A stretch of DNA of 63,978 nt, the filler included, from Octopus bimaculoides (lineage: Eukaryota): NCBI RefSeq assembly GCF_001194135.2. It is 8 parts of 8 records of this genome, joined end to end, with 100 filler letters (N's around TTAATTAATTAA, not from the genome) between each part and the next. Parts side by side here need not be neighbours in the genome. Positions count along the whole stretch, not along the records: positions 1 to 12,526 come from NC_068981.1; positions 12,627 to 17,998 come from NC_069008.1; positions 18,099 to 22,480 come from NC_069002.1; positions 22,581 to 28,276 come from NC_068996.1; positions 28,377 to 43,432 come from NC_069005.1; positions 43,533 to 47,446 come from NC_069006.1; positions 47,547 to 56,672 come from NC_068991.1; positions 56,773 to 63,978 come from NW_026391934.1. One strand, written 5' to 3'. This document shows, piece after piece, positions 2,338 through 63,700 of the stretch; position 1 is the stretch's first letter; the number at the start of each line of letters is the position of its first letter. Below the pieces are notes generated by a model. The model did not search any database. It saw nothing but the letters and a program-made list of their open reading frames with translations, and was not told the origin of the DNA. Both the position numbers and the translations under genes were made by a program.

Positions 2338-2379
2338 TAATATTTGATAAGATGAAATGCATCGAAACTGGTAATATTG
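2338..2379 (+). ncRNA. Decayed type I hammerhead ribozyme motif
   Basis: (T)AATAT / TTGATAA (core CTGATGA with 2 transitions) / GATG-AAATG-CATC / GAAA / CTGG / TA / ATATT(G). Stems I and II still pair. Confidence 0.5.
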
Positions 2380-2730
2380 ATATTTTTATTCATATATTTT
2401 ATTAAATTCCCGCTTAAGCTGAAATGTCTTAGACTTAATTATGTGTTATTTACACCCACTTCTTTTTTATATATAAAAATTTGATTTGTAAAGATCTCTA
2501 ATCTTTTTTCAACTATATATATATATATATNNNNNNNNNNNNNNNNNNNNNNNNNNNNNNNNNNNNNNNNNNNNNNNNNNNNNNNNNNNNNNNNNNNNNN
2601 NNNNNNNNNNNNNNNNNNNNNNNNNNNNNNNNNNNNNNNNNNNNNNNNNNNNNNNNNNNNNNNNNNNNNNNNNNNNNNNNNNNNNNNNNNNNNNNNNNNN
2701 NNNNNNNNNNNNNNNNNNNNNAATAAGACG

Positions 2731-3318
2731 ATGACCAGCAAAATTGGACTCCTATATGCTAGAAATAGATGCCGAATCATCTAACCACGAAAAAAATATA
2801 TGTTCTCAGTAAAAATTCAGCGGCACTACAGATTGTAAAAGGGCAAGACAAATGAAAAAATACTAAATAAAAAAAACGATTAACCTACGTACCATGGTTT
2901 CACCTGTTAAAATTTACATAAGTAAATATCTGCAGGATCGTCAGCGTAGTCCGTCGATTAGCAATGCAATTTCCAGAACTAGACACAAGACGTCCACCCG
3001 AAAGGGAGCACGTGTAGAGTTCTACAAATTACATACAGTGTATCATTTCAAATTTCCTCAATCTGGCGCAATCCGGAAATAATTCTGCAGTTAATAAATT
3101 TTTGCAGCTAATTTACCGGTATGAGAACATTATTATATAAAATTTATTAATGAGGGTAGAAATTGATATTAATCAATTAAAACCAGTGGTCTAGCATATT
3201 AAAAAAATACGAAGATTAAAATTATATTACATACAAAAATAAGAGGAATGACCAGCAAAAGTGGACTCCTATATGCTAGAAATAGATGCCGAATCATTTA
3301 ACCACGAAAAAAATATAT
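2731..3318. repeat. 71-bp direct repeat pair (2731-2801 and 3248-3318) bracketing a hammerhead; resembles a partial tandem pLTR
   Basis: atgaccagcaaaa(t/g)tggactcctatatgctagaaatagatgccgaatcat(c/t)taaccacgaaaaaaatatat occurs twice with 2 mismatches. Confidence 0.8.
2885..2949 (-). ncRNA. Near-intact type I hammerhead ribozyme
   Basis: Minus strand: CTACG / CTGACGA / T-CCTG...ATTTAC-TTAT-GTAAAT...CAGG-T / GAAA / CCATGG / TA / CGTAG. Stem I is a perfect 5 bp and the core is canonical. The only defect is a U-U mismatch at the base of stem II. Confidence 0.75.
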
Positions 3319-3413
3319 TCATATTTGGGGGTATCTTTTCAAATGTCTTTATTTTGGCGCGCTGAGTCCGGAAATAACTATGCTGATGAGTTATATCTTC
3401 TATAATAATAACT

Positions 3414-3500
3414 ACTGAATCTCTTAACTCTTTGGATCCTCCTGGAATACCTTCTCAAAAACTGACACTGAAGAAAGGAGTTCCAATCATGCTTTTGATG
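3414..3500 (+). mobile_element. Helitron PIF1-like helicase fragment
   Basis: Translates TESLNSLDPPGIPSQKLTLKKGVPIMLL, matching the conserved Helitron/PIF1 motif EFLNSL.P.GLP.H.L.LK.G.PIMLL. Confidence 0.75.
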
Positions 3501-3713
3501 GCGGAAGAGGAGAAAGAGAAAAGACAGAGAGAAAAAAAAGAGTTTTTTTCACAATTTCTATCTTCGTGCAAAAAATTGTGGAAACTGGTTTAGTATTTGA
3601 ATAAATCTGTTTGCAAAATTTTAAAACGACTACTCGTTTTAAGATTCATGTACATTTTCAAACCCCAAAACAAATTCTCCGATATTTTTTGCTGCGTGGG
3701 AATATACTTCTCT

Positions 3714-3792
<79 letters not shown>

Positions 3793-4384
3793 AGACAGAC
3801 ACACACACACATATATATATTATATGTGTGTATATATGCTCATGCACACATACACACGCTCGCAAACACAGATGTTCAAATAAAAACAAAGAGCACTCAA
3901 CACTTACAAATTTTAAATATTCGAATTAAGAGTTTGACCGGGAGGTTCAAAACTTGAAGTTTCAAGAAAAACTCGCTTGATAGTCCTGACATACATAGAT
4001 AAAGTCTCACATATGTAGTATCGTGATCTAAAACTGAAACAATCATGAACTGCGATTATTCAAGTGATTAATAGGGAAAAGCTCTCTTTATAAATGTTTA
4101 AAATACAAACACAAGCAGGAAAGTCAACTCTTGTAAAGTTAGCTGACCAAAATTTGGGGTAAAAAAAAAAGACATTGTATGAATTTCGTCCAGAAACCAT
4201 GTCATTGAAGATATTTATGTAAATAAATCAATATGTAATTGAATGATTTTGTATATATCTAAAAAAATTTCGTACATAGTTTTGTCAGTATTAATTTAAT
4301 GTATTAAACAACAGAGAGAAAATTTACAAAATTTTTCAAATTTCATTTTTTTTTTCTTGTATTTTCTTTATAAAATTCATATAG

Positions 4385-4561
4385 ACTTAGACGAATGTTC
4401 TGAAGGAATCCATAATTGCCCTCCTCATATGATATGTCAAAATACAATTGGTAGTTTCAATTGTCTTTGTTCCTGGGGATATCGTTGGAATGGTGAAACT
4501 TGTACCGATATACCAATACCACACCTAAAACCGGATGATGCACTGCCAGTAAAGGTATCGT
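4385..4561 (+). CDS. Internal exon encoding a calcium-binding EGF-like domain plus a short stalk
   Basis: (D)LDECSEGIHNCPPHMICQNTIGSFNCLCSWGYRWNGETCT has six Cys with the cbEGF consensus D-x-D-E-C and C-x-N-x-x-G-S-F-x-C. Acceptor AG at 4383-4384 and donor GTAAGT at 4562. It is a symmetric phase 1-1 exon, as is typical of EGF modules. An alternative phase-0 donor is possible at 4555. Confidence 0.85.
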
Positions 4562-5439
4562 GTAAGTATTTGAGTCGTTGTGAAAACATCTTTGTGTTTT
4601 TGTCATTATCTTGTTCATTATTTTACTGACATTTGACGTTTGAGTGGCTTACACATCAGAGCTTCGAAATTTACGGTCCTCTACTTTCTGTGTTCAGTTC
4701 CATCTCTGTGACGTCAGGTATATATTTTCTCTTTTCAAGATCTATAAAGTATAGTATCTGTCAATTACTGGAGCCGATTTAATCGACAATACTCAACCAC
4801 TAAATTTGTAGACTTGTACACAATTTTCGAAGTTAATATTTCACTGTATTAAGAAGTTATTTGAGAAACAAAAGTTTCGTTTTATTTTATTCTCTGTAAA
4901 TATCGTCTAAATCGTATTTTTCAGTTTTCGCACATCAAAGACTCACAAAAAACATTACTTTAAAAGGTGTCATGGTTATTTAATAGTGGAAGCTTTTAAG
5001 GTCAAATCAAGGAAAGCTACTGTGATAGTTTCAATCTCATACTAGGGTGAATTCAACAAGAGTGAAAGCGGGAGGCCTCAATGATAACTTTATCTTTATG
5101 TAATATATTTAGGCAAGTCAAATTGGCAGCAGAGCTTATCCTTCTCCAAACTACATTCGTAGGAGCTGAAGTCTTTGTGTAACCTAAAGGAAAAATCGTC
5201 AATTTTTACAATACAGCTGCTACTGAGAGTAGTGAGTCGCTTCTACCATACGGTAGACTGGGTTACTTGAAAGCAAAATGTCTTGGTGAGGCACATTTGT
5301 GACTATATATGAATCAACGTCCTCTTGGTCAGTTGTCCGATAACTAGTCCATAACCTAGCCATAAACATTTCCCTTGTACATGATACAGAAGGACAGAAA
5401 TGGCCTACTTTTTTTTTTATCTAGAAAAATAAGTGGCAA

Positions 5440-5925
5440 GTTTGTGTGTTTGTTAATTTGTTACTTTAACTCCTCTGAGACTATCTAACAGACCTTGATG
5501 AAACTTGACACGTGTGGTGGGGCTTATGCCCATGCGGTCGCTTACGCACTTGCAATTTTTTAAAAATCAATTTTTAATCAGCATCGATTTTTCAAAAATC
5601 GTAAAATTTCGGCATTTTTCGCACGAGCCATCATGACATCAATTTGACGAAAAATGCCGAAATTTGACGAAAAATGTTTCATGGGTATAAGCAGACAGCT
5701 TATTAACAGTAATCTATTTAGCATTTGCTAATTCTTCATTTCAATGCAAATTGTTTTGATTTGCTAAAACTTATTATTTCAATTCGTTGTTTTGATTCCA
5801 TAGCGTTTCAGGTTTTGATTAGGTAAGAGCATTTTATTTCTCAAGCAAAATTCAGGCATTTTGCGCACTAGCCGTCGTGACGTCAATTTGATGAAATCTG
5901 CCCCAAAGCGTAAAATTTCGCCATT
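5440..5925. mobile_element. Unclassified non-autonomous repeat, possibly Helitron/DINE-like
   Basis: gtttgtgtgtttgtt...taactcctctgagactatctaacagaccttgatgaaacttgacac motif and internal short duplications (gtaaaatttcg, tcaatttga). The classification rests on resemblance only. Confidence 0.3.
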
Positions 5926-6437
5926 NNNNNNNNNNNNNNNNNNNNNNNNNNNNNNNNNNNNNNNNNNNNNNNNNNNNNNNNNNNNNNNNNNNNNNNNNNN
6001 NNNNNNNNNNNNNNNNNNNNNNNNNNNNNNNNNNNNNNNNNNNNNNNNNNNNNNNNNNNNNNNNNNNNNNNNNNNNNNNNNNNNNNNNNNNNNNNNNNNN
6101 NNNNNNNNNNNNNNNNNNNNNNNNNNNNNNNNNNNNNNNNNNNNNNNNNNNNNNNNNNNNNNNNNNNNNNNNNNNNNNNNNNNNNNNNNNNNNNNNNNNN
6201 NNNNNNNNNNNNNNNNNNNNNNNNNNNNNNNNNNNNNNNNNNNNNNNNNNNNNNNNNNNNNNNNNNNNNNNNNNNNNNNNNNNNNNNNNNNNNNNNNNNN
6301 NNNNNNNNNNNNNNNNNNNNNNNNNNNNNNNNNNNNNNNNNNNNNNNNNNNNNNNCTTACATACAGTAATTTAAGTGAATTATTATTTTTTTCTATCTCA
6401 GAATTCAAGTGTTTTTATTCTCAAAATTATACATCCT

Positions 6438-6514
<77 letters not shown>

Positions 6515-6539
6515 TAGACAGACAGACAAACAGACAGAC

Positions 6540-6573
<34 letters not shown>

Positions 6574-6974
6574 GGGCGGTCAGAAAGACTGAGCAAACAT
6601 TTATTTCTGGATGATGGAGGAAAGCAATGCTGAAATATTTCCCCAATTTACAATGGGTTCCCATCCTTTTCACAGGCAGATGGAGTATAAGGATTGGCGA
6701 CGTTGAAATGGGAAGTTAAAACATTCATATGTTTCCGATAAATATAAGTGGTGCAAAGGAAGAGAATTGGATATCATTGCAAAGTTTGTCTGTAATAATG
6801 GGTTTTCTATCTGCTTTGCATTTTTATTTCGCCATCCTACTTTTAAATATTCTTGAATGCAATATTTACCAGTTTGCCGATTTCTCGATTAAATCTATGT
6901 ATTCTTTTGTTTCTTTTCTTTTTTTTAGGTATCAGATTTACAATTCTCAATTCTAAACTTTTTCACTATTTTAT

Positions 6975-7905
6975 GATAGAAAATAAGTGTGGAAAGTCAC
7001 AGGTAAAGTAAATGATGTTTTAAGCCTGATTAAAGTAGAAAACATCAGTGAAATAAACCAGCTAATCTTAGCTTCTGCTAATGTGGTAGCTGACATAGTA
7101 GGCTACAAGCAAAAAACTGAAGATATAAAAGCAAATAAAAAGAAAGAACCAAAGTGGAAGAAGAAAATACGAATGAAGCTGGAAAATATACAGAGAGAAC
7201 TGGAGTTATTGAGTAGGGTAATGAGAAGAGAGCTCAAGAATAAGGTAGTAACCTGAAAGCTGAATGGACAGTACAGGTTAGAAGAAATAGGACAAACAGT
7301 GCATGAATTAACACAAAAGGTAACAACATTAAAAGCCAAATTGAAAAGTTATGATGCTAGACGCAAAGGTTTCGAACAGAATAGGTGTCTATTGAGGGAA
7401 TCAAATAGAAGGCGTCTATTTTAGGAAATAGAGGGAGGCCAACACCAAGGACTGATTCCAGATGCGAAAGAAAGTAAAGAATTTTGGGGAAGGCTGTGGA
7501 AGAGGCCGGTGAAACATAAAGAAAACGCAAAGTGGCTAACAAAGTTGGAAAAACTACTTGCAACTGTATCAAGACAAAACGATGTCAGAATTAATCTATA
7601 TACAGTGAGACAGAGGATAAGAAAATAGAAGATTAGAAAGGACCAGGCCCAGATGGAGTACAAGGGTATTGGCTAAAGAACTTTACACAGCTGCATAAAG
7701 GGATCGCTGCAGCAAGATCACGTCCCTGCCTGGATGACAAATGGACGAACGCTGCTATGCCTCAAGGATCCATTGAAAGGAACTTGGCATCAAATTTTTT
7801 TTATCTATAACCTGTTTACCACTGATGTGGAGACTTATGACCGGTGTCTTGGTGGAAGAGTTATACAGCCATCTAGAAAGTAACAATCTACTTCCAGAAG
7901 AAGAG
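6975..7905 (+). mobile_element. R4/Dong-clade non-LTR retrotransposon, degenerate N-terminal RT region
   Basis: Across frameshifts: EPKWKKKI, SKEFWGRLW, GPGPDGVQGYWLKNF, PAWMTNGRTLL.LKD, ITCLPLMWRLMTGVL.EELYSHLESNNLLPEE. Confidence 0.85.
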
Positions 7906-7957
7906 TTGTACCCCAGTGTCACTTGGGTGGCATGCACTGCTCTCTCATTCAATAATA

Positions 7958-8750
7958 TTAGGTTGTCAAGAAAGTTCTTGCGGTTTTTAACCTTTAAATT
8001 CAGATGCACATATCTCGGCTCAAACAAAACTTTATTAATCGAAGTAAACACCATTAGAATCAACACACTTTTGCCAACGCGAAACAAGTTTATTTATGCC
8101 AGTAGTGTAAAAATCCTGCGTTCTGGTGGCGATGAAGTCGTGTTTGGTATCATCTTGATTTTTGAAGCATTTCTCACGCAGGAAGTTGTCGAGATGCTTG
8201 AAAAAGTGGTAGACGGTAGGCGAGAGGTCTGGTGAGTATGGTGGATGAGGCAGAGTTTCGTAGCCCAAGTCGTTCAACTTCTGCAGGGTCAGTTGTGTGA
8301 CGTGCGGCCGAGTGTTGTCGTGGAGAAGAATTGGTCCTTTTCTATTGACTAATGCTGGCTGTTGTTGTCGGAGTTTCTTATGCATTTCATCCATTTGCTG
8401 ACAGTACTTCTCCGCCGTAATGGTTTCGCCTGGATCCAAAAAGCTGTGATGGATGAGACCGGCCGCAGACTACAAAACAGTCACCATGACCTTCTTTTGG
8501 CGCAACTTCGGCCTAGCTTGAACTGGAATAAGAAAATTGTGCTAATTTGCTTTTTGTCCATGTTGTATTCAACGTTCCTGAAAAAATGGTCTAATTACTC
8601 AAAAAGAAAATGAGTGACACGATTAGATAGAGCGAAAAACGGGCTTTAAAATGATATATAACGTCAAAGTAATTTAACGAAAATTAATTTGAAAATACAT
8701 CATTTAAAACCAAAATTTAAAATTCCGCAAGAACTTTCTTGACAATCTAA
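7958..8750 (-). mobile_element. Internally deleted mariner (Hsmar1/cecropia-like), 793 bp, with both TIRs and a TA TSD
   Basis: TIRs ttaggttgtcaagaaagttcttgcgg (7958-7983) and ccgcaagaactttcttgacaatctaa (8725-8750) match at 25/26. TA at 7956-7957 and 8751-8752. The ATG at 8561 (MDKKQISTIFLFQFKLGR) is joined to the C-terminal part KKVMVTV...LLHDNTRPH...HPPYSPDLSPT.YHFFKHL. Confidence 0.92.
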
Positions 8751-9024
8751 TACAAATCTTTTGATACTTCCTCTTATCCCTATGGTGCTAAGCATCGACT
8801 CCACAGAGCAACAGACTAATACTGTATAGGCTTTAACAATGCATGAAATTATACATACGTAAACGCTCAATGAATTATGTAGTTCACCTTTATAATAGAC
8901 AGACGCCGTGTGTTTGTTCTCTTTTGCATTTTGTTTCATACAAGATTTGGAAATATTATTCGTCTGACTGTCTAAAGCTAACAAAAATATTATATGTATG
9001 CTTTTTATTTGCTTCTGTTTTCAG

Positions 9025-9167: not shown

Positions 9168-9263
9168 CATGAAAATATTTGAAAGAAATTGATATATCAT
9201 CTATTTACAATGAATATGTTATTATGTTCGTCCTTGTTGCTATTGTGGTTCATTAAGAAAACA

Positions 9264-9384
9264 AGATGCTTGAAAAACTGGTAGTCGGTAGGCGAGAGGT
9301 CTGGTGAGTATGGCAGATGAGGCAGAGTTTCGTAGCCCAATTCGTTCAACTTCTGCAGGGTCAGTTGTGTGACGTGCGGCCGAG
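9264..9384 (-). mobile_element. Second fragment of the same Hsmar1-like mariner family
   Basis: RPHVTQLTLQKLNELGYETLPHLPYSPDLSPTDYQFFKHL is nearly identical to about 8200-8310 and retains the third catalytic Asp. Confidence 0.85.
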
Positions 9385-9769
9385 ATTTACAGACAAAAGT
9401 CATTTGTTGTTCATAAGCTCCAGGCCAGATATTGTAAAGCAGAACAACAGTCAAAAGAGTACTTGCTGGGACCATCCATCTTTCCCCCCAGGCAGTGTAT
9501 TCAGAAGTACATTATCAAACGTATCGTTCCTTTTTTAATATATTAAGTAGAGTGTGATTTGAGGAAAGTTTGACCGTAATTTCTGGTAAGACGCACGACC
9601 ACAAAGAGGATTCCTCTTTAGCTTACAGCTCTTGCTTTATTCCCTTCGTTACTGATTGATCTGAATGACTAAAGTGCACGCTTGAAAAGGAGTATAATGA
9701 CAATAGAATCTCTAGAGCGACAGTCTGATTTGCTTAAAAATAAACGATTAAAGACAGAAAAATCTTGAA

Positions 9770-25736: not shown

Positions 25737-27429
25737 CTTTGAAAATAATAGTATTAACGATATCTTCGACGTTTTGGCCACCAAAGCCATCATCATCTCA
25801 TGCGGGTTCAACTGAGGGACACTTCGGAGTCACTGCCAATAGTATTCTAGTTGCAGAATAATACATTTTGCTCTCCTGAGATCTATTGAATAATCCTTCA
25901 ATTTAGTGTAAAATTGTGCTTATTTTAACATTAAAACAAATATCTATTTATGTCTATACTTTTATTCATATAAGCAGATATGCTAGTTCCAAAATTTTTC
26001 TAAGAGTTCAACGCAGTAGTTGTACTAACACGTAATGTTCGTAGCCACTTCAACATGGCTGTCCGTTCTAACGGATTTTGCTGCAATATTTCAATCCCAA
26101 GAGAACATCTCTAGCTGGTTAATGATGCACAGCTGCATCCGAGATATTGCGAGCAAGGGAGTGAACCCTTACCATCTTGTAGAGACGAGACCGTCAGACC
26201 GGCCTGGTTTCGGTTTATTTCTCTCCCTCTTCAAGCGACTGTATATCGCTTGAAGCTATATATATTGCGAGTAGAAGCAAGTTACTGCCATCTCTATAAG
26301 ACGAGATGTCCAGTACTGAAGAGCCCCTATCTGAGGGTTCGGCCTTTAGAAATAATAGTCAAATTTCATTTAACTCTTGTTATATTTCGAGATGGTCATT
26401 CTTTTTCTTGCCAAATAAGCACACGCACAATAGATTCGTTCTTCACTTCAGATATATTATTGTTCTTATTTTATGTCTATTGTCTAGAAATCTTCCGTCA
26501 CACATATTGTGACCTCATCAGCGACTCTGCATCCCACGTATCTCCTCATTTAAATGTTTGAAGAATATATAGACACATCGATTATTATAATCTGAGATAC
26601 ACGTCTGGAAAACAAAACGAATGAAAATATCTAGAATGTCCTTTTACCATACCTCTGATTAGAATTGACTTGGGTTTAAACAACTACGATTATAACAACA
26701 ACAATTTTGAGACGGCGGAGATATCATTAATCAAAAGCGAAGGGGTTATGTAAATGTGAAAGAAAATATATCCAAGTAGACAGTAATTGTTCAATAGGAT
26801 AGAATAAATTCACTGTATTTAATTTCTCCCAAACACCATCTGCATGAAAATATTTAAATTGCATTCAGTAATACGAAATGCTGATGCAGTAATGAATTAA
26901 AATCTAATTCAATTTAACTCAATGACAACTATTGCTTCAATCATTTCAACATGTCCGAGACTTGAACATGTTTCAATTTTACTAAATTTCTCTAGAGAAC
27001 CATATGCTTCACTGCAGTAGCCGTAGTAGCATTCATCATAAAGCATATGCATAATAGCGCATACCATTAGCCGTAAAAAATATGACCATATCTAAAACAA
27101 ATATCTTTAAATCTATAATGTTAATTACTTAGAAATGTGACTAGCACAAAAAACCTAAAGTGGAACTAGTTCCAAAATACTTAACATCACTATATTAAAT
27201 ACTACCACTGTAGTTGCATCACTACATTAAATATGCTAGCATTGGATTACTTTTCGGATTGATAGCTTGACTTCTTTGTTATTCGAGAGAGGCATAATAG
27301 CTTCAAAACTGCTGTTAAGAATGGTAAGTGATGGATATATTATTAAACATAGGCAGAATGATGTAAATCCTTTTCTCAATATTTGTGTCTTGAAACTCTT
27401 TTAGAAGAAAGGTGACCCCATAAAGCATT

Positions 27430-29793: not shown

Positions 29794-31113
29794 CGAGGGG
29801 TGCTTAAAAGAAACCTGAATTTTGTAATATTATCTTACTTATTTAGTTTTACTTCTTTACACTTGTATCACCTTCACAGTATTCTCCATTTGAAGCAATG
29901 TATCGGTCCAGACATATTTTCCACTGTTGGAAGATGTGTTGGAACTCTTGAAAAATGATGCCTTTTAACTCCTCCGCCGCTTTTTTCTTCATTTGTTCTA
30001 CATGTACAGAACGTTTTCCTTTGAGGTCTTTTTTCATTCGGGGGAACAAAAGATATTGCAGAGAGCAAGGTAGGGTGAATAGCGAGGGAGGATAAGCGGG
30101 GTCCATGTGATCTTTTGGTCAAAAACTACCTCACACTCAAGGTGATGTGCGAAAGTGTATTGTCGTAATGAAACCACCACTTTCCACTTGGCCATTGGTC
30201 GGGGATTTTCGTCACGTCGCGTCTCGCAAACGCTTCAGAACTGCCAAGTAAAATGTCTGGTTAACAATTTGACCAGGAGGAACAAATTCTGTGCAGACAA
30301 TTCCTTTTGCATCAATAAAACAAACCAGCATCGTCTTGACATTGGACTTCACTTGACGCACTTCAGTGGGGCGTAGTGACATTGAATGCTTCCATTGACT
30401 TGATTGCTGCTTCGTTTCCGGGTCGCAGCCGTAGTACCAACTTTCGTCCCCAGTGACGACCTTTGAAAAAGGTTCGGATCAACTTCCAGCTGTTCTTTCA
30501 GTTCATGACACGCATTCAGTCGAGACTGCTTTTGATCTACCATGAGCATGTGAGACACAAATTTTGCTGCAACTTTTTTCATTCGCAACTCCTCGTTCAA
30601 AATTCGTTGGCAGGCGCTCCAAGACACACCAGTCATATCAACAAGTTTGTCAGTTGTTCGGTAACCGTCCTATAAGATAACTTCATGAATTTTCGTGATG
30701 TTCCCAATCGTTTGGGAGGTCGACGGCCACCCTGAACGAGGTTAGTATTCAGCGACAAGTGACCATTCCTAAAGTGTGGAAATTACTTGTAAACTTGTGT
30801 TTTGCCCATGGCAGCGTCCTTGTATACTGTTTGAAGCGTGGCAACTGTTTCGGCCACCATTTCCCCCAGCAGAAAACAGAAATTCACGGAAGCACGCTGT
30901 CCCTTCGTTTCAGCTATCGCAAAAAATCGACGAACAGGGGAGAAGCACTGCAAGACAAAGACGCACCACGTGGCAGTACGATCTCACTAAACGACACTAG
31001 TCGGCAGATTGATGCCAGAGGGTCGCACTGAATGGTTTCTAACGGCGGAAGCCTGAACTATGATGGGCTTCTCTCATAAAGAAAGTTTCCAGTTACTTTT
31101 GGGTACGCCATCG
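29794..31113 (-). mobile_element. Full-length decayed mariner (Hsmar2/irritans-like termini), 1320 bp
   Basis: Termini TA|CGAGGGGTGCTTAAAAG and, reverse-complemented, TA|CGATGGCGTACCCAAAAG. Transposase motifs across frameshifts: KKVAAKFVSH.L, VVTGDESWYYGCDPETKQQSSQWK, KSNVKTMLVCFIDAKGIV, LFPRMKKDLKGKR, QWKICLDRYIASNGEYCEG. Confidence 0.9.
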
Positions 31114-33675: not shown

Positions 33676-33718
33676 GCGCCAGATGCATTTCGGCTTTTAT
33701 GAGCCTTTTCAATTACGC
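33676..33718 (-). ncRNA. Decayed type I hammerhead ribozyme motif
   Basis: Minus strand: GCGTAA / TTGAAAA (core CTGAAGA with 2 transitions) / GGCT-CATAAA-AGCC / GAAA / TGCA / TC / TGGCGC. Stem II is perfect and stem III is the palindrome ATGCAT. Confidence 0.5.
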
Positions 33719-33999
33719 ATAATTACAACTATCCACAAGCTCGGACGAGAATTCGCTGCCTCTGATGTAGGAAAAACTGAATAAGATACTCACTGATGTT
33801 GCAAATAGCCGTCCGGCTGATTAGAAATCTGCTATATATATTTGAAGCAATATTTAAGTATAATAGCGATATATGTATCATACTTAATGTATACACATTG
33901 TCGATAGGACTTTGTCGATTAATTTTTTATCTTTAGAAGGATGAATGGTATACGGTACACTGATGGTGGGATTCGAAACTAAAAACTAATAGTATAAAG

Positions 34000-34689: not shown

Positions 34690-35925
34690 CTCTGAAGAGA
34701 CGAATTGGCTAAAATACAACACAGAGAAATGAAAGAGGAAATTAAGAGAGAGTTTTACAGAAGAGTTAGACTAACATTATACACTGAACTCAGGGCTAAA
34801 AATAAGATAATAAGGGATAAAGACGGTAACCATAACAGTCATAAATTACAGCTTTAACATGATAAACTGGAAGATGAGTGAATTGAGAAACTTTGAAGAA
34901 TAACCAGAAAACTATTAACAGCCACTAAAGTCACAGCCCCAAAGCAGACACAGACAGAATATATCTACCCGGCTCAGAAGGAGGCCGCGGCTTGACACAG
35001 AGAGAGAACTACTATAATATAACAACAGTGGGACTAGGAAAGTGCTGAGAATCAAAAGGTGTAAGACTACTACATGTAATAAAGCAACACAAGAAAAACA
35101 TCGCTTTTTTTCTATGCACAAAGAAGCGACAAAATACAGAATAGAAACATACGACACTGATACATTGATCTCAGATGACAACAGAGTAGAAATGGTCAAA
35201 GAGACACAAAACAATATGGAAAGAGAACTACAAAACATACCAAAGAAGAAATGGAGAAAAATGCACTCCACGGTCAATATCCTACAAGGCTGGTAATTTG
35301 CAAAAACCTGGACCTGCCCCATGATAAAAACTAGTGGGAACAGAAACCACCTCCAGTGCTTGAAAATGATCACATCTCACTTCTCTGGAACTTCACCATT
35401 CAAACTGACAGAAAGATAGATGCAAATAGGCCAGACATTACATTGAAAGACTCCAGACAAAAATCATGCCTCTTCCTTGATATGACTGTCCCAATCGATA
35501 TAAATGTATCTTTCAAGACCTACCAGAAACTGAGCAAGTATAAAGATCTTGAAATGGAAATTAGCAAACTGTGGAACCTGAAGACTAAACCAATACTTGT
35601 TGTCATAGATGCCCTAGGAATGATAGCAAAAGGGGCTGATTGCTACCAGCTCAGATGTCAAAATGGCAGAAATTCAAAAGATAGTGCTCATGGGAACTGC
35701 CCATATCCTACGTAAAATACTGTCTATGTAATCTCAAGTTTTAAAACAAACTCATAATTTTTTTATGGTTTCTTAAACATTCTCTAGAACAACACTATGT
35801 ACTAAACTAAATATATGACACCCTAATCATAACACCAACATGAACTTCTAACTTGTTGTCTCTTGAGGTCTCTGGGTGAGACTTCGAGTCAACTTGTACA
35901 AATATAAAGCAGAAAGCAAACAAAT
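34690..35925 (+). mobile_element. 5'-truncated, internally deleted R4/Dong element ending in (TAA)n
   Basis: EMKEEIKREFYRRVRLTLYTEL; PKADTDRIYLP.SEGGRGL; LWNFTIQTDRKIDANRPDITLKD...FLDMTVP...KLSKYKDLEMEI..LW (PD-D/ExK endonuclease). The 3' UTR is followed by TAA repeats at 35923-35945. Confidence 0.9.
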
Positions 35926-35947: not shown

Positions 35948-37190
35948 TCAGGTTGAGTAAAAAGTAAGCAGCGTTTTGAACCATAAAGAATTTGTACCGG
36001 ATTTCTGCAGTTTCCAATTTTTTAAAAAACGCTTTTTTTTTTAATTATCTGGTAATAAAGACATAAACTTGCCCAAATGCATCCATGAATTAACATAGGT
36101 ATATTTTTTTCACCGTTGTTGCAATCGTCAGAAATAGAACTGTCAAAATGCAATATTCGAGGAATTTTGTTATTCAACTTCAAAAAATGACGTAAAGCAG
36201 CTGAAACTGCTCGTGATATCAACGAAATGTTTGGTGAGGAAATGACCAGTGAGTGGTCAGCTCGAAAATGGTTTAAACGACTCCGTAGTGGAGACCTGAG
36301 CGTTGAAGATCGTGAGCGTAGTGGACGCCCATTTTTCATCGATGAAGGTCAATTAAAGACCGTTATTGAGAAAGATCCACGTAAAACTACTAGAGAACTG
36401 GCAAAAGATCTTCAAGTTAGCCAGAAAACTGTCGGCAACCATTTGCATGCGATCGAAAAATCAAAGAAGCTCGACAAATGGGTACCACACGATTTGAATG
36501 AAAATCAGAAAAGCGCAGATATGAAATTCGCTCGTCGCTTCTTCTCTGTAACCAGACCGATCCATTTCTCGACCGTAATGTAACTTGCGATGAAAAGTTG
36601 ATTCTGTACAATAATAAAAAACGTTCTTCGCAGTGATTGGACCGAAAATGAACCACCGAAAACCTTCCTTGAACCCGAGCACTTCAAAAAGGTTATGGGG
36701 ACTGGTGGTGTACTGCTGGACTCATCCAGTATCACTTCTTAAAATTCGGAAAAACATATTGCCTTGAAATTGCCAAAATGAGTGAAAAGCTGCTACTCCT
36801 CCGTCCCAGACTGGTCGGCAGAAGAGGGCCAATCATTGTTCATGACAATACTCGATCACATTAATGAAGCTCCAGAAGCTGAGATAACTTGGCTACGAAG
36901 TTTTTCCCTGCTTTACATATTCCCCAGATCTTTCTCCTACCGACTCCCACTTTTTCCACTATTTGATGGCTTCCTGCGATAGAAGGAGTTCAAAAATCGA
37001 ACCGATGCTGAAAGTGCATTCAAAGAGTTCATCAGCTCCAGAACTCTACATTTTGTGAACTTGTAACTCGTTCACAAAAATAAGTTGATTGTAATGGTAC
37101 TTACTTTGATGAATAAAATTCCCGCACTGCTGAAATATGTTGTAATGAATTTCATGTTTCAAAACGTTGCTTATTTTCTACTCAGTCAGA
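35948..37190 (+). mobile_element. Near full-length decayed mariner, 1243 bp
   Basis: Degenerate TIRs tcaggttgagtaaaaagtaagcagcgttttgaa and ttcaaaacgttgcttattttctactcagtcaga. CA/TA flanks. Motifs KAAETARDINEMFG, WFKRLRSGDLSVEDRERSGRP, WVPHDLNENQK, VTCDEK, SPDLSPTDSHFF. Confidence 0.9.
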
Positions 37191-39169: not shown

Positions 39170-39620
39170 AATGTTTTACTGATTTTTTACAGTTTCAGTG
39201 ATGGACTGGGTCTGTAGTCTTCGAATTAGCTTTCTCCTGTCTGGTTTTGAGAAGCCTAATTTCTCAAGATTGGTATTTAGGCAGTGTGTTACACATCCCA
39301 GTGTCCCAATAATTACAGGTATGAACCTGAACTTGTAATCAGGATAGAGTAACTGCAGATTTCTCAGTAGTTCAGCATAGGTGTTCTCATTTTCATTGAT
39401 CTTCTTCTTTATGTTAACATCCGCTGGGCAGTTAATTTCCACAACTATACACAGTTTCTCTTTTATGTCCCAAATCATTATGCAGAGGTTTGTTGTGCTT
39501 ACATTTTATTGAGGTCTTCACTGGAACATTCCACCAGTATTCCTTTTTATTAGAAGTGGCTATGGCTTCTCCCATACTGTGGGTTCTTATTTCTTTGTCC
39601 TCGTGGTTATCCTTCCGGTG
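39170..39620 (-). mobile_element. Restriction-like endonuclease fragment of a second R4-clade subfamily
   Basis: YWWNVPVKTSIKCKHNKP..MIWDIKEKLCIVVEINCPADVNI.KKINE.ENTYAELLRNLQLLYPDYKFRFIPVIIGTLG. Confidence 0.8.
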
Positions 39621-40780: not shown

Positions 40781-41424
40781 GGATTTATAGAATTTATTAC
40801 AGTATTTTGTTTCAATATATTTCTCGACCAACAATTAAGAGAGCTGCCACCTACTTCGACAAGGATTGAACTAACAAACGCTTGTATTACACACACAGAC
40901 ACGCATACACACACTCATAAAGAAATTTAGTGTGCGGTTATATTGAAGGAAAGCTTTGCAATTGTCCATCTAAACAATCCGTCACGATTTTTTGTTTGTT
41001 TGTAATTTAAATCTTCAATTATAATCAACTGACTCACAAATAATATCATCAACAAATAACTACAAAATCAACAACAATATCGAAGACAACTACACGAGGA
41101 ACAAATCGATAAAACAAGGATAAGGAATAAGCATTTGAAAAGAATGAAACGAAATGAAATCCAAGGTTTTTTATAAATATGAAATGTAACGGAAAAAAAT
41201 AAACGAAACGAAATAATAAACACAGGAAGGAGATCAAAAACCGAAATAAATTTTAAAAAACAAGAAAGAAAATAGAAAAATTAAACAGATGCGAAATATT
41301 TTAACAAAAATTGTGACTAATGTGTTGATAAAGTGATTAATTTTCGAGCCGTTTTGGGTGTCTTTGTTTAGTTGTTTTGTTTGGTTTTTGTTGGAGTGAT
41401 TGTGGCGAAGTAAAAGAAGCTAAG

Positions 41425-42156
41425 ATGGAGGACACAGCAAAAGTTAAAGAGGACTTTAGTAAACATCCGTGGGTCTTGAAACTAATGACTGATCAAAAGA
41501 GAAGACGTCGGGATTTAAATCAAATCCTGGAAGATGTCACACTTGCGCAGCAGATCGAAAATATTAAATCGATCAGCAAGAAACACGAACGTATCTCACG
41601 GCAGCTAGAGAGCGAACTCGAAGAAAACAAAAACTTGACGATGAAAACAACGAAAATGGAAGTGGATTTCGAACGACTTCGTTGGGCGTTAGAAGAAAGC
41701 AACGCCCGAAATGAATCGCTCAAGAAAGAATTGTCGTTTAATAAAGAACAATTGGACAAGGAAACGAAGAAAATCCTGGTAGAAGCGCAGCGAAAAATCT
41801 CTCGTTACAAGACGGAATTTTACAGAATGCAAGATGAATACGAACGAAAGCGAGAAAATTTGCGGAAGAGCAGTACCGAATGTCAAAATGCTAAGAAAAA
41901 ATACGAGGCCCTTTTAAATGCATCAACTTTAAATCAAAATGAATTGAGTAACATTGAACACGAGGCGGCACATCTACAGCTGTTGTTGAATGACTCTAAT
42001 AATTTGTTGGCCTCAAATGGCAACGACTGTAATAAAGAATCGTCAATGAGTCAGCAAAATAACGGGATCGAACCTCGAAAACTTTTGACCGAAATTAATA
42101 CTGAAATGGAAACTCTTATCAAACAATGGAAATCGGAAAAATGTATTAAAAAATAA
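41425..42156 (+). CDS. Intronless 243-aa predicted coiled-coil protein, no family recognised
   Basis: Uninterrupted ORF of complex sequence with an AAG-ATG-G start context and an in-frame upstream stop at 41338-41340. It has an E/K/L-rich heptad-like helix (RISRQLESELEENKNL...FERLRWALEESNARNESLKKEL) and no TE motifs. AATAAA at 42152-42157 overlaps the stop. Confidence 0.7.
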   Translation: MEDTAKVKEDFSKHPWVLKLMTDQKRRRRDLNQILEDVTLAQQIENIKSISKKHERISRQLESELEENKNLTMKTTKMEVDFERLRWALEESNARNESLKKELSFNKEQLDKETKKILVEAQRKISRYKTEFYRMQDEYERKRENLRKSSTECQNAKKKYEALLNASTLNQNELSNIEHEAAHLQLLLNDSNNLLASNGNDCNKESSMSQQNNGIEPRKLLTEINTEMETLIKQWKSEKCIKK

Positions 42157-43200: not shown

Positions 43201-43252
43201 GAACAACCTTAATCGATTTTCAAACCTTGTCGGGTTCTCATCAGAGGCGTCC
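43201..43252 (-). ncRNA. Near-intact type I hammerhead ribozyme (solo pLTR-like fragment)
   Basis: Minus strand: GACGCCT / CTGATGA / GAACC-CGACAA-GGTTT / GAAA / ATCGAT / TA / AGGT. The core is canonical. The stem II base pair is G-U, likely a CpG decay of G-C. Stem I is 4 bp. Confidence 0.7.
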
Positions 43253-43532: not shown

Positions 43533-43900
43533 AAAAATTTTAGTGGGGTTACAAACAGCACCACACACAGGTTGATACATTACAACTGTTTTTTTCAGAT
43601 TGATGGTCAGGCCAAAATCATCACAAGCTGCGTCAAATGCAGATACAAGGGATTGCAGACCCGATTCAGAACGACTAACCAGATCGCAATCGTCAGCATA
43701 CAAAAGTTCCCTAATAAGTGAAGTAAAAACCTTCGTTTTAAACTTCAGTCGGGTCAAATTAAAAACATTCCCTGTTGTTCGATATTTTATGTAGATATCC
43801 TCCTCAGAGTTTTGAAAGGAATGTGACACCACAACGGCAAAGTATATTGCAAAGAGGGTGGGTGCATCAAGGTCTCCCTGCTTTACTCCATTTTCCACAG
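43533..43900 (-). mobile_element. RTE-clade (BovB-like) reverse transcriptase fragment
   Basis: NGVKQGDLDAPTLFAIYF...FNLTRLKFKTKV...IRELLYADDCDLV...LQSLVSAF..ACDDFGLTINLKKTVVMYQP. Confidence 0.92.
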
Positions 43901-44454
43901 CAAAAGATTCAGAAAGCCTACCACCAAAATTAACCCTAACTCATACATAAATACATACATACATGTATACACATTTACACACACACACACACATACATGC
44001 ACATACATATTAACACATGTATATCGCTGACCACAACATTCAGTTTTTTTCTCCGTGTTTTTCTCCTTGTTTTCTCCTTATTCTTTCTGTTGAAGAGCGT
44101 AGCTGGAAACGTTAAAGACTTTCTCTATTCCCGAGCATTAAACTAATACATCCTTTTGTTGTTTACACCACCTGTCCTCGTCTGTTGTTGTTTTTTTCGT
44201 AAATTCTCCCATATGTACATATATACATACATAGAGACAGACAGACATTTATGCGCACATACATGCATATATACATATATAGAAACACACATATATATAT
44301 ACATATCTACATACCTACATATATGAAGACATCTTGGATAAGTGTACTTTGCTCTAGCCTTGGGCTGACCAAAGCCTTGTGAATGGATTTGGTAGACAGA
44401 AACTGAAAGGATCTCACACATTTTCCAGTATATATACCTATATATATCTATAGG

Positions 44455-54650: not shown

Positions 54651-55287
54651 TACATATATACATATATTATGCGAATTGACCGCAATATCTGACGATCACG
54701 CCATTATATCTACATCCTGAAAAGGCCATTATAACCAGTCACAGTAGCTGATAAATTCACTTTTTATTTATTTCTTATGGGTGTCAATTGTCCCACCACA
54801 ACGATCTGAAATATTCGTGTCGTAAAATGTTGAAAACGATAATGACATTCCAGTAGTTTGCGGTGTTGTGAAGAAAAAAATTCCTGGCTAAATAATGTGT
54901 TGTTTAATAAAATTTAACATAGACGACCCTACTATTATCGTTATTATTAGTACCCCTATTCTGCTACCGAGGGTTTTATGCTAATATTAGCATCCATAAA
55001 GGGCTTAGCCCCATGGATATCTCGTCACACTCTAAAGACGAAGACAAATGTAACTCTTCAGCTCTGAGAGGCAGGAATCCGTTACGGTCATTTGGTCAGT
55101 AAGCCACCAAAGAATAAATACTCTGGGATCAGCGAGTGAGTTAAGCCATCCTTTATGGATGCGAAACCATTGGTCACTCAATGACCAGACATTGACTTAA
55201 CTACATATAAATAAATATATATGTATAGTCCCTCGACTATCGCGGGTGTTACGCCCCCCCCCCCNNNNNNNNNNNAAATATATATGT

Positions 55288-57885: not shown

Positions 57886-57925
<40 letters not shown>

Positions 57926-57955
57926 NNNNNNNNNNTACACACACACACACACACA

Positions 57956-59115: not shown

Positions 59116-59149
<34 letters not shown>

Positions 59150-59195
59150 ATGGATGTATTTTGTATAGATTTCTGAAACATACACTATTTATATG

Positions 59196-59252
<57 letters not shown>

Positions 59253-59432
59253 ACAAATCTACATGTAAACATATAATATATATATATAGGCTCAGGAACA
59301 CGGTGTGCAGGGGTGCCAACGTGCCCCCCTAACATTTTTGAAGAGCAGTGAAAACGCTTTGAACATCCTCTTAAAAATCTGAGTTTGCACCAACCCCCAT
59401 CCCCAAGCAGATTTCGTTCTCGCACTTGTGAC

Positions 59433-59518
<86 letters not shown>

Positions 59519-60275: not shown

Positions 60276-60610
60276 TGTGGTAAGTAGCTTGTTTACTAAC
60301 CACATGGTTCTGGGTTCAGTCCTACTGCGTGGCACCTTGGGCAAATGTCTTCTACTATAGCCTCGGGCCGACCAAAGCCTTGTGAGTGGATTTGGTAAAC
60401 GGAAACTGAAAGAAGCCCGTCGTATATATATATATATGTGTGTTTGTGTGTCTGTGTTTCTCCCCCCACCATCGCTTGACAACCGATGCTGGTGTGTTTA
60501 CGTCCCCGTAACTTAGCGGCTCGGCAAAAAGTGACCGATCGAATAAGTACTAGGCTTACAAAGAATAAGTCCTGGGGTCGATTTTCTCGACTAAAGGCGA
60601 TGCTCCAGCA
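60276..60610 (+). mobile_element. SINE family B, near full-length
   Basis: Head tgtggtaagtagc...gggttcagtcctactgcg, internal (TA)(TG) microsatellite, tail ...gcagtcaaatgactgaaacaggtaaaagag. Confidence 0.9.
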
Positions 60611-60781
60611 TGGCCGCAGTCAAATGACTGAAACAGGTAAAAGAGTATAGGTATAAATATTTAAATTGAAATGTCTATAAATATATGGATACAAATGTGT
60701 ATATAGATTTATATGTGCGTATATATGCTATATACTCTTACGTTGGGTGTGCGTGTGTATATATATATATATATAAATATA

Positions 60782-63700
60782 TATAAGTATAAGTTAGGAA
60801 TGTTTAAACATTCAACTGATAGGCTTGAAGTGTTTAAGCAACTAAGGGATAATTAAATCCCAAGGTGCTCCTGGAGATTACCTGTGTGGGTACCGTCTTT
60901 GTTAGAAGGTATCTAGAGACAGGTAATTTATCGTGTAAACCGCAGTTTATAAGTATAATCATGTAGAGAATGGAGAAACAAACACAGGAAGAAGCAGGTC
61001 GATTGCGCTAGTTAGCCATTAATTTAATCAATTAGGTAGAGATTGTGTAATGTTACATTTACGATCGTTTCGATTTGCCAATTTAAATTGGCAGATCTCT
61101 TCAGAATGTAGAGAAGTATGTTTACATGCATGGGTTGAGAGATGTGCTAATGTACAGGAATGCATATAGTGGTTTGAGAATAGAGGTAAGGTATAGTGAG
61201 TCTTACATTTTAGTCGAAGTCAGAGTTAATATTTCTGCGAAGGAGAGGTAGGGCGGGTGCTTTTTAAGTCCGTAATTTCAATCTTCGTCAAGCGCATTAC
61301 TCACGTGGCTGTTGTTAAATCAAGCAAATGTTGTGTTTCATTTGAACCGGCGGTCTAAGTAAAGGGAGTAACTCTAAGTTTTGGTGAAGAGGGAGCTAAC
61401 TCTGTCCTAGTAAATATTTAATTATACTTAGAAAATGAAAATTCTGTAGTGTATAGACAAACTATGTTATTTTCGTATTTTTTGTTTAGAAGATGTGTTG
61501 TAGCGTTAGGATTTCGAGGCGTTCAGTTAGGCAAAGGTCACAACGTCTGTTAATTGAGTTATAAGAATTTGCTGTTCTGAGTATATGCCATTTTAGTTTG
61601 TATGCTATATTATTGTCCTTTAATTCCCAGGTATAGTCCTGTTGAGTTTGCCTTCTTTCTATTTCTAAAGCTAGACTGGTGTTTATTGTATCTAAGTCGT
61701 ATTTAATTTTTCGTGGTCCCAATGTATGATCTTATATGGCTGTTTGTGTGTACGTCGCATTGGTAAACTACATTTTCAGTCTTACATCTATTGGAGAAAT
61801 TGCCTTTATTCCTATCCCTACAGCTACATAAATTATAAGGGGTGTCTGTGTCGGTGTGTTGTTGTGCGGCCCTATTGTTCTTTTGATGTGTGTCTCTGTT
61901 AGCAAGGGGCGTTAGATTAGAGTTGGGGTTTGTTGTATTTGTCGGACGGCTGCTAGTTTGGTTGTTCATGGTCTTTCTAGCTGCATAGAATGCGTCAATT
62001 TTTTTATTATTAATAGAGGCTATGATGGTAGCTAAGTTACATGTCAGGCTGTGGCCGATTCTAATTTTGTTCTTAAATATTGCTGCATATTTATTATTTA
62101 CATTTAGATGTTTATCTATTATGTTCATTAATGAATGGACTATGTTGGATTTGAGGTTCATGGTGAAGGGGATAATTAACCAGATCGTATCATTATTGCG
62201 CATATTGTTATTACGGTTATGCCTGGTATAGAACCTGCCATCATAGCTGGAAAGGCTAATGAATTTGCCTTTGTGGCTATCTAATTTGTTTCTATGGTTA
62301 GGTTTATTATTAGTATGTGTCTTATCAGTGTTAGCTGGGTTAATATTGTTTGTTTTTTGTGGGCCCGGCGTCAAGGGTTTAAGGTTTATAACAGGGTTTA
62401 TTTTAGTTCGCTGTTATTAATAATATTCTTATCTTTGCGTGGCTTAATGTTGATTATGTTCTGGTTGTTATTGTATTCCCGTTTCATTATGTTATTAGTT
62501 TTATTAATGTTAATCGTATCATTGGTATTGGTGTTTACGCTGTTGTTGATATTTTTGGTGTTATGTGGGTTGGCTTTGGGATCCTTTGTATAATTATTAT
62601 TATTTTTATTATGTTTAATTGTGTCCTTCTTATTCTTGGTGTGGTTTGCAGTAGGGTTTGGTGTGTTATTATTGTATGTGTTAATATCATTTAGATTCCC
62701 TTTATTTCGGTCATTTGTATGGTTATTGGGGGCTAGGTATTTAATTTTATGGTTGAATCCTGCTTTATGTAGTGCGATATTATAGATATCCTTATGCTTA
62801 TTAAAAATATCCTGGTTAGAGGAGAGGCGTATATATTCTATTGTTTATGCTATGTACTAAGCCTCTCTTAAGGAATAGCAGCTGGTTACTGGATGTGTTT
62901 ATGTATTTGAGGTTAGTGTTTGGTTTTATGTAAGGTTCATGGAGTCCTGTGGCTAGGTTGCAGTTTGCGCCGAAGTAATTTATGGAGGTGTGTTCATTTT
63001 CTATGGAAATGGCTAGTCCGAATCTTTTAAAGAATTTGTGTAGGTTTTTCTTGATGAGTTCAAGTTTCTTGTTTGAGGGATTATTAATTACGAAAAGCGC
63101 GTCGTCCCTGTATAAGCCTCCCTTGAGATCTGGGAATTCATCCTGTATGTATGAAGACAAATATATGCCCACTAAGTCAGTTATCTGAGTTAAATCCGGG
63201 GATCCCATGGTGATGTCGAAATAGTTTGGAGAGTCCTTCCGGACCCAGATTTTGTTATCAAAGCTTATAACTGATTTCCTTGCTTCTAGTATTACTTTTA
63301 TTTCTTTCATAGTTAGATGTGAGTGGTTTTTGGCGAATATTAGGGCACTATTTAGGATCGTGGGGTTAATTCAGGAGTAGTAATCTACTATGTCTATCTC
63401 TATGAATTTATAGTTTTCAGTGTTCGGTATTTTGGAGAACCAATTTAGGGCTTCGTATGTGTTGGACAATAATTCAAGGATGAGTCTACTTTTTAGTTTA
63501 GGGATGTACTTATTTAGTATTAGCTTACTTAATTTACATAGGTCTGACTTATTTGGGAATATTAATCTAACTTTAGAGTCTGTTAGGAAGTTAGGTTTAT
63601 GGTCTTTTAGTGTGATTCTAGGTCTAAGTGGTAGAAATGGCTCAGTTTTTTCACCTAAGTTATAGTCTAACATGATGTCCTTGGCTGCTAAGTTCATGGA

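What the first reader, a model, noticed from the sequence alone, without database searches (positions are those of the whole stretch)
2338..61110. Hammerheads of unrelated families, each with its own short stem III sequence (mostly palindromic)
Seen: three near-intact and about six decayed hammerhead folds in 64 kb, with unrelated stems I and II. Stem III including the A-U pair reads ACGATCGT (61 kb), ACCATGGT (2.9 kb), AATCGATT (43 kb), ACTGGT probably from ACCGGT (2.3 kb), ATGCAT (33.7 kb), ACGT (44 kb) and ACCATTGGT (55 kb). Inference: if cleavage needs dimerisation through stem III, each family's palindrome could act as an address favouring homo-pairing and avoiding cross-family cleavage. 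The density also suggests that this genome holds a very large, mostly unannotated ribozyme population, many copies detached from any ORF (solo pLTRs or retrozyme-like RNAs).
Basis: partly seen in the sequence, partly recalled or inferred. Interest (0 to 1): 0.75.

Follow-up and report, generated by a model that had tools for sequence, protein, structure and literature searches.

The report
Dimer-type hammerheads of octopus Penelope elements
These nine motifs are hammerhead (self-cutting RNA) sequences from several jumping-gene families, with at least 26,000 such motifs in what is likely an octopus genome; their short palindrome likely lets two copies pair up to cut, a known arrangement, but it is not a unique family address because unrelated families share it and one family changes it.

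Summary
Three near-intact type I hammerheads with palindromic stem III are present (0 in 12 shuffles), plus six variant, split or decayed ones. All seven named motifs belong to repeat families of 100 to 2,000+ candidate copies, and stem III is linked to family. Two 'decayed' cores are the known U3-A8 variant, and one carries a family-wide A6U change. The 61-kb motif ends a broken Hydra-type Penelope-like element; the others are short, 3'-anchored repeats, two with retrozyme-like tandem units. Pattern counts give at least about 26,000 motifs genome-wide; the window is about four times denser than average.

The address idea is not supported as stated. Unrelated families share palindromes (7 shared pairs, 2.9 expected). 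One clan moves between TCGA, TCGG and CCGG through the G-U wobble (19:1 over the mismatch form), so selection likely keeps self-pairing, not identity. In a double hammerhead stem I also pairs between partners, and it alone separates all seven named families. Palindromic stem III, dimer cleavage and thousands of copies per genome are published for Penelope elements. This scan noted such motifs before in other octopus-like DNA. Cleavage was not shown.

The parts
61054..61110 (-). Family A type I hammerhead, intact core, 6-bp stem I, long stem II, stem III ACGATCGT; predicted cut between 61060 and 61059; lies in the 3' pLTR of the element upstream
   Evidence: 23 of 30 copies keep the palindrome
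61492..63908 (-). Broken, 5'-truncated RT plus C-terminal GIY-YIG ORF of a Penelope-like element, most like the Hydra clade
63901..63978 (+). Inverted copy of the family A pLTR that begins at the first base 3' of the predicted cut site
2885..2949 (-). Family B hammerhead, intact core, U-U mismatch at the base of stem II (family-wide), stem III ACCATGGT
   Evidence: 34 of 34 copies keep the palindrome
2722..3318 (-). Family B repeat, more than one unit of about 516 nt (partial tandem, cut by an assembly gap), no PLE ORF found nearby; retrozyme-like
43201..43252 (-). Family C hammerhead, intact core, stem III AATCGATT; family has tandem units of about 300 nt
   Evidence: 25 of 35
2338..2379 (+). 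Family D hammerhead with U3-A8 core; family stem III ACCGGT, here ACTGGT
   Evidence: 12 of 27 ACCGGT, 6 ACTGGT
33676..33719 (-). Family E hammerhead with U3-A8 core, stem III ATGCAT; old family (69-77% identity), stem I decayed here
   Evidence: 20 of 24
44082..44118 (+). Family G minimal hammerhead-like motif with family-wide A6U, stem III ACGT; window copy has lost the stem II closing pair
   Evidence: 25 of 25
55138..55200 (+). 3' half of a family F hammerhead (stem III ACCATTGGT, odd-length near-palindrome); CUGANGA missing in this copy
54991..55037 (-). Inverted 5' half of a family F hammerhead
26473..26528 (-). Decayed hammerhead of a further family (GAAA read as GGAA; stem III AGATTT)
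   Evidence: 82% to L290
425..552 (-). Strongly decayed hammerhead of the ACATATGT type seen in L046
   Evidence: two weak pieces (E about 1e-4)

Best explanation
These motifs are type I hammerhead sequences carried by several independent repeat families, one of them a Penelope-like retrotransposon end and the rest likely Penelope ends or retrozyme-like derivatives, and their palindromic stem III likely serves to let two copies on a tandem transcript fold into a double hammerhead that would cut the RNA into unit lengths. Shown: the motifs, their families, the ORF link for family A, fixed 3' and staggered 5' ends, and two-sided changes that keep stem III self-complementary. Predicted by energy calculation: stem III is unstable as a monomer hairpin and stable as a duplex of two copies. 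Inferred: cleavage, ligation into circles and reverse transcription by a Penelope RT. Families differ in palindrome because each drifts among self-complementary sequences through G-U intermediates. Family specificity is a likely by-product of both substrate arms, mainly stem I, not a selected stem III address. Most dispersed single copies are likely inert.
For: 3 strict hits vs 0 in 12 shuffles. Seven families with 106-2,146 first-look candidates. Hydra-like ORF within 1.5 kb in 13 of 30 family A loci. Fixed 3' ends and staggered 5' ends in 8 of 8 families examined. With the inner four bases left free, 52 of 100 listed matches are palindromic against 1 in 16 by chance, using 11 of 16 possible tetramers (counted by eye). 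Those inner bases would be loop in a monomer. One clan: TCGA 34, CCGG 27, wobble TCGG 19, mismatch CCGA 1 of 100 listed (by eye). Monomer stem III hairpin +0.4 to +6.0 kcal/mol vs homoduplex -4.7 to -11.2 for families A-F. Seven pairs share stem III yet form only 0-3 stem I pairs across families; among the 42 ordered pairs of the seven named families the maximum is 3. Published model: PMC4209133, PMC6765202, PMC7229834.
Against: No cleavage was shown. Two RNA-seq runs (about 6% of each read) gave reads in both orientations and no pile-up of ends at the predicted cut of family B or A; such libraries may not show it. Genomic 5' ends do not cluster at the cut site (3 of 283 alignments within 4 nt, biased sample). 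No Hydra-like ORF was found near families B, C, D or E (0 of 30, 30, 25, 25 loci), so their Penelope origin is inferred. Family G spread with A6U, and a change at A6 is reported to slow cleavage (A6C, PMC3088659). Published in vitro activity of such motifs is low, and 8 of 9 Xenopus dimers did not cleave (10.64898/2026.07.22.740005). For ACGT the homoduplex is only -1.7 kcal/mol.
Confidence: 0.82

Rival explanations
1. Stem III palindromes are selected addresses that keep co-expressed families from cutting each other.
For: Stem III is family-linked. Among the seven named palindromes the homoduplex is the most stable in each row. None of the 16 of 506 ordered cross-family pairs with 4 or more stem I pairs shares an identical stem III, but about 0.4 were expected, so this is not significant.
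Against: Sharing is at or above chance (7 vs 2.9, or 4 vs 2.0). ACGT is used by the largest families. ACGATCGT and ACCATGGT each recur with three unlike stem II groups among 100 listed matches. One stem II sequence occurs with TCGA, TCGG and CCGG, and the wobble form pairs fully with both others. B and F cross-pair at -7.4 kcal/mol. Published dimers form in cis on tandem repeats, where no address is needed.
Confidence: 0.08
2. In some families the fold is kept mainly as a structural signal for the Penelope RT or endonuclease, and cleavage is slow or dispensable.
For: About 8,000 copies carry A6U across several subfamilies while N7 varies freely (89 of 100 listed read U6). Inserted copies run through the cut site. 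No end pile-up in RNA-seq. Naiad elements spread without canonical hammerheads (PMC8557442).
Against: The rest of the core and the C3-G8/U3-A8 covariation are kept in all families, which fits selection on the active site. Copies made from re-ligated circles would also run through the site.
Confidence: 0.08
3. The motifs are chance matches in AT-rich, repeat-rich DNA.
For: A relaxed descriptor gives 0-2 hits per shuffle against 3 observed; one sample hit (L193) lies in what looks like a mariner-type ORF.
Against: 0 of 12 shuffles at strict level; 9,105 vs 356, 841 vs 0 and 9,019 vs 0 against reversed-pattern controls; family-wide conservation with compensatory changes.
Confidence: 0.02

Closest known systems
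Minimal type I hammerheads of metazoan Penelope-like elements (Cervera and de la Pena 2014, PMC4209133; abstract, results, discussion and part of methods read, parts 1-2 of 4)
   Same: Type I fold in pLTRs, small palindromic helix III, predicted dimers, several unlike families per genome, thousands of mostly single copies, inverted pairs, U3-A8 core variant, extra base before stem II.
   Different: The counts given there are 2,000-9,000 per genome, lower than here. The parts read give no octopus data, no A6U family and no tally of palindromes across families.
Hydra-clade Penelope-like elements, including Hydra-1_Obim (Craig et al. 2021, PMC8557442; section 11, passages and two File S1 places seen)
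   Same: C-terminal GIY-YIG after RT, CxC linker, CxxC before the conserved E, canonical hammerhead in the pLTR, TA-rich 3' flank; intact homologs show RWK, ADKT/S and CxCX5C.
   Different: The window copy is 5'-truncated and broken (DKK for DKT, third linker Cys missing). Whether it is Hydra-1_Obim itself was not tested; File S2 with the hammerheads was not among the files held.
Metazoan non-LTR retrozymes (Cervera and de la Pena 2020, PMC7229834, passages; Li et al. preprint 10.64898/2026.07.22.740005, parts 1-3 of 5 read)
   Same: Short non-coding units with one type I hammerhead each, tandem and many solo copies, derived from pLTRs; a U-U mismatch at the base of stem II as in axolotl HHR_Amex2 (family B).
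   Different: No long arrays and no abundant circular RNA were seen here; family B (about 515-540 nt) is longer than the usual 150-450 nt but within the 51-972 nt range of the preprint.
Double hammerheads of ASBVd, newt satellite 2 and PLEs (Forster 1988 and Lunse 2016, not held; seen only as cited in PMC6765202 and PMC6466107, passages; Aedes palindromes in the Fig. S8 legend of PMC3088659)
   Same: Unstable stem III with palindromic loop that pairs fully only between two copies; varied palindromes already listed for Aedes.
   Different: The wobble path between palindromes within one clan and the across-family sharing test were not found in the searches made.

Membership tests
Type I hammerhead ribozyme | Core CUGANGA ... 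GAAA ... UH | tested here: met
   Exact in families A, B, C, F; U3-A8 covariant in D, E. Family G departs at A6 (next row).
Type I hammerhead ribozyme | A6 in the core (family G, 44 kb) | tested here: not met
   U6 in 89 of 100 listed matches, A6 in 9, C6 in 2 (by eye). G works like a hammerhead variant; membership rests on an activity test.
Type I hammerhead ribozyme | Three stems around the core, stem I open | tested here: met
   Stem I 4-8 bp in chosen members of A-G and stem II of 4 bp or more
Type I hammerhead ribozyme | Site-specific self-cleavage after H17 | not testable with these tools
   No assay; RNA-seq ends uninformative
Dimer-type (double) hammerhead of PLEs | Short stem III with palindromic loop | tested here: met
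   6 of 7 family forms are perfect palindromes, F is an odd-length near-palindrome; 52 of 100 free tetramers palindromic
Dimer-type (double) hammerhead of PLEs | Two copies in tandem on one strand | tested here: inconclusive
   Seen for A (L002/L004), B (L035, L034/L048) and C (L067/L073, L089); most copies, including those in the window, are single
Hydra-clade Penelope-like element (family A) | RT followed by C-terminal GIY-YIG endonuclease, hammerhead in 3' pLTR | tested here: met
   YRDD-type RT piece, ENVVY...YIG piece and CxxC-E upstream of the motif on the same strand. Pfam gave no RT or GIY-YIG hit on the pieces or on five homologs.
Hydra-clade Penelope-like element (family A) | DKT motif and CxCX5C linker | tested here: inconclusive
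   Window reads DKK and CxC without the third Cys; three intact homologs show DKT/DKS and the linker
Hydra-clade Penelope-like element (family A) | N-terminal RWK motif | not testable with these tools
   The window copy is 5'-truncated; RWK is present in the homologs
Hydra-clade Penelope-like element (family A) | Placement in the clade by RT phylogeny; absence of CCHH | not tested
   No tree was built
Non-LTR retrozyme (families B, C) | Short non-coding unit with one hammerhead, found in tandem | tested here: met
   Units of about 515-540 nt (B) and 300 nt (C) with two-unit tandems; no Hydra-like ORF in 0 of 30 and 0 of 30 loci
Non-LTR retrozyme (families B, C) | Abundant linear and circular unit-length RNA | tested here: inconclusive
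   Family B: 270 and 217 reads, both orientations; joints that go back 513-515 nt fit either a circle or a genomic tandem.

The most novel reading that the evidence does not exclude
Co-expressed Penelope RNAs dimerise in trans, and the two substrate arms together (stem I plus the stem III palindrome) form a selected self/non-self code that keeps dozens of families, and sister subfamilies, from cutting each other; only 5 of 506 ordered cross-family pairs have 4 or more pairs in both arms. The octopus genome, with its wobble-linked palindrome series and a successful A6U variant, would be a natural library for reading that code.
Probability: 0.1. Interest if true: 0.65.

Novelty: new member of a known kind. 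Interest (0 to 1): 0.3.

Why it matters
The kind is known, so the finding mainly adds numbers for one animal. Two results are of modest use to ribozyme specialists. First, the 19:1 excess of the G-U over the C-A intermediate is sequence evidence that the dimer helix is under selection at the RNA level in vivo, although these ribozymes cut poorly in vitro. Second, an A6U core has spread to about 8,000 copies, which makes it possible to test whether cleavage is needed for Penelope retrotransposition at all. If the two-arm code were selected, it would be a rare case of self-recognition among selfish RNAs.

Tried and rejected
Rfam scan at E up to 10: no hammerhead among the 150 rows shown of 189; the rows were almost all microsatellite-driven miRNA-like matches. 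Repeat finder: swamped by N runs and microsatellites. Pfam: no RT or GIY-YIG hit on the three PLE pieces or five homologs; the Atlas gave only HTH_animal and low-share RVT_1 leads. 'Decayed core' for the 2.3, 33.7 and 44 kb motifs: rejected, these are family forms. Pile-up of genomic 5' ends at the cut site, suggested by the inverted copy at 63901: not seen, 3 of 283 alignments within 4 nt (query-selected loci are biased against it). Run search: no RNA holder listed on record; laid RNA-seq showed no end pile-up at the cut. U3-A8 hits in the systematic sample were not clearly above shuffles (8 vs 4-9), so that class is counted from the genome pattern only. Sample hit L193 looks like a mariner ORF match and was left out of the family table. 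Lunse et al. 2016 is not held, so whether it tested heterodimers is unknown. Searches for an address or heterodimer idea, for A6U and for cephalopod hammerheads found nothing beyond the papers cited; most subscription papers are outside the library. Stem I of the clan was not examined beyond two loci.
Full report
Setting. The window is a pack of 8 unlinked stretches of a 2.34-Gb animal genome. It is likely an octopus: the three nearest proteins to an ORF piece carry Octopus names. The motifs map to different contigs (C1, C25, C26, C11, C97077), so '64 kb' is not one locus.

Observation. All seven named stem III sequences are present. A type I descriptor with exact core and no palindrome requirement gave 3 hits (-61104, -43244, -2944), all palindromic, and 0 in each of 12 local dinucleotide shuffles. 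Own-genome searches made each named motif a family: A 490, B 994, C 1,361, D 367, E 106, F 679 and G 2,146 first-look candidates, 40 scored each. The family form of stem III was kept in 23 of 30, 34 of 34, 25 of 35, 12 of 27, 20 of 24, 24 of 34 and 25 of 25 aligned copies; these are the copies closest to the window's. Alignments correct the word 'decayed'. D and E have a U3-A8 core, a published natural covariant (PMC4209133, PMC3088659). G has U at position 6 throughout. The F copy lacks its 5' half, and a 5' half lies inverted beside it. Two more decayed copies were found at -26473..26528 and -425..552, making nine. A relaxed descriptor alone was near chance (3 vs 0-2 in 8 shuffles).

Abundance. 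Whole-genome pattern counts against reversed-pattern controls were 9,105 vs 356 (canonical core, ACGT), 8,593 vs 1,235 (8-nt stem III closed by C-G), 3,638 vs 1,451 (U3-A8, 6-nt) and 9,019 vs 0 (family G clan). Net of controls and of about 9% overlap between this is about 26,000, a lower bound. A systematic sample of 140 stretches (1.196 Mb without N) gave 14 canonical hits against 0-2 in 5 shuffles. That is 11.7 per Mb against 52 per Mb in the window (P=0.03).

What carries them. Upstream of motif A on the same strand lies a broken RT and GIY-YIG ORF (61492-63908). Its intact homologs show the RWK, DKT/DKS and CxCX5C marks given for the Hydra clade; the window copy shows DKK and only CxC. Using 9 of the 34 homologs as queries, such ORF pieces lay in 13 of 30 A loci, 4 of 25 F loci, 1 of 25 G loci and none of the B, C, D or E loci; other Penelope clades were not used as queries. 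B has a unit of about 515-540 nt and C of about 300 nt, with some two-unit tandems. All 8 families examined have clustered 3' ends and staggered 5' ends, the pattern expected of target-primed retrotransposition (established knowledge).

Selection on the palindrome. With the four inner bases of an 8-nt stem III left free, 52 of the first 100 matches were palindromic against 1 in 16 by chance, using 11 of the 16 possible tetramers (counted by eye; copies are not independent and about 14% of matches are noise). These bases would be loop in a monomer. For families A-F the monomer hairpin is predicted at +0.4 to +6.0 kcal/mol and the homoduplex at -4.7 to -11.2; for ACGT only -1.7. In one clan (841 vs 0 control) the first 100 matches held TCGA 34, CCGG 27, TCGG 19 and CCGA 1, with 19 others (by eye). 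Strand-symmetric DNA decay would give TCGG and CCGA equally. TCGG is the G-U wobble form that keeps the duplex (-8.9 vs -1.3 kcal/mol), and it recurs with at least two stem II subtypes. This is the classic compensatory path, so selection likely acts on self-pairing in RNA. A-to-I editing of the template is an alternative source of the asymmetry (own knowledge; untested). The nominal P (4e-5) overstates the case because copies share descent.

The address idea. I took one member each of 23 motif types, chosen by hand from the hits; 7 were single copies in that call. Seven pairs share an identical stem III against 2.9 expected under uniform choice; after merging two possibly related pairs, 4 against 2.0. 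An address predicts a deficit. The two largest families both use ACGT. ACGATCGT and ACCATGGT each occur with three unlike stem II groups. One stem II sequence occurs with TCGA, TCGG and CCGG, and the stem II of L111 (ACATATGT) is identical to that of a match with ACCATGGT. By the geometry of a type I double hammerhead, the core of one copy uses U16.1-H17 of the other, so stem I also pairs between partners (inference from the fold). The seven pairs that share stem III form only 0-3 stem I pairs across families. Among the seven named families no ordered pair of 42 exceeds 3. Overall 16 of 506 ordered pairs reach 4 in stem I and 5 of 506 reach 4 in both arms. Families are thus predicted to be largely unable to cut each other, but through ordinary divergence of both arms. 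In favour of the idea: stem III is family-linked, each named palindrome pairs best with itself, and none of the 16 stem I-compatible pairs shares stem III, though only about 0.4 were expected.

Activity. Nothing here shows cleavage. Two raw RNA-seq runs (about 6% of each read) gave 270 and 217 reads on B and 340 and 234 on A, in both orientations, mostly under 95% alike and so from other copies, with no pile-up at the predicted cut. Joints that go back 513-515 nt fit a circle or a genomic tandem equally. Genomic 5' ends lay within 4 nt of the cut in 3 of 283 alignments, although the inverted pLTR at 63901 begins exactly there.

Known work. Palindromic helix III, dimers, several families and thousands of mostly single copies per genome are described for Penelope-like elements (PMC4209133, parts 1-2 of 4 read; PMC6765202 and PMC6466107, passages). 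Varied palindromes are listed for Aedes (PMC3088659, passages and a supplementary legend). Retrozymes and their pLTR origin are covered by PMC7229834 (passages) and 10.64898/2026.07.22.740005 (parts 1-3 of 5). Octopus Hydra elements are in PMC8557442 (section 11, passages, File S1 rows; File S2 not held). Lunse et al. 2016 was not held and may bear on variants and heterodimers. Searches found no address, heterodimer or hammerhead A6U report in the held library. Earlier notes of this scan describe the same kind in other octopus-like DNA and gave the Hydra lead.

Verdict. Real, abundant and of a known kind; the stem III address is not supported, while selection for self-pairing is. Interest 0.3; new member of a known kind.

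Noticed in passing
window 44082-44118 and G000 genome-wide: A6U core variant in about 8,000 copies, fixed across subfamilies while N7 takes all four bases; a minority sister form keeps A6.
   Followed up: partly
window 63901-63978 (+); also G000:C54676:239-337: Inverted family A pLTR copies begin at, or one base after, the predicted cut site; no general pile-up was found.
   Followed up: partly
G000, listing: An abundant U3-A8 family (stem II GGTTGC...GCAAC) reads AATTTT or AATT at stem III depending on the parse; flanks not seen.
   Followed up: no
L054, L125, L018: Hammerheads with long palindromic stem III (10-14 nt), some predicted to be stable as monomers.
   Followed up: no
window 8035-8469 (-), 9197-9511 (-), 30349-30669 (-), 36191-36583 (+): Pieces that read like mariner-type transposases (recognised from recall, not searched).
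   Followed up: no
window 43533-43937 (-); 35335-35715 (+); 39176-39505 (-): LINE-type fragments; the first hits Pfam RVT_1 at 5.6e-10, the other two had no Pfam hit.
   Followed up: partly
window 4300-4629 (+) and 41341-42156 (+): A likely exon with an EGF-like Cys pattern, and a 271-aa open frame rich in coiled-coil-like sequence; likely host genes.
   Followed up: no
RNA runs X23/X24 on window 60986-61055: One or two host transcripts carry a short family A pLTR fragment with constant unrelated flanks (22-62 reads per end).
   Followed up: no
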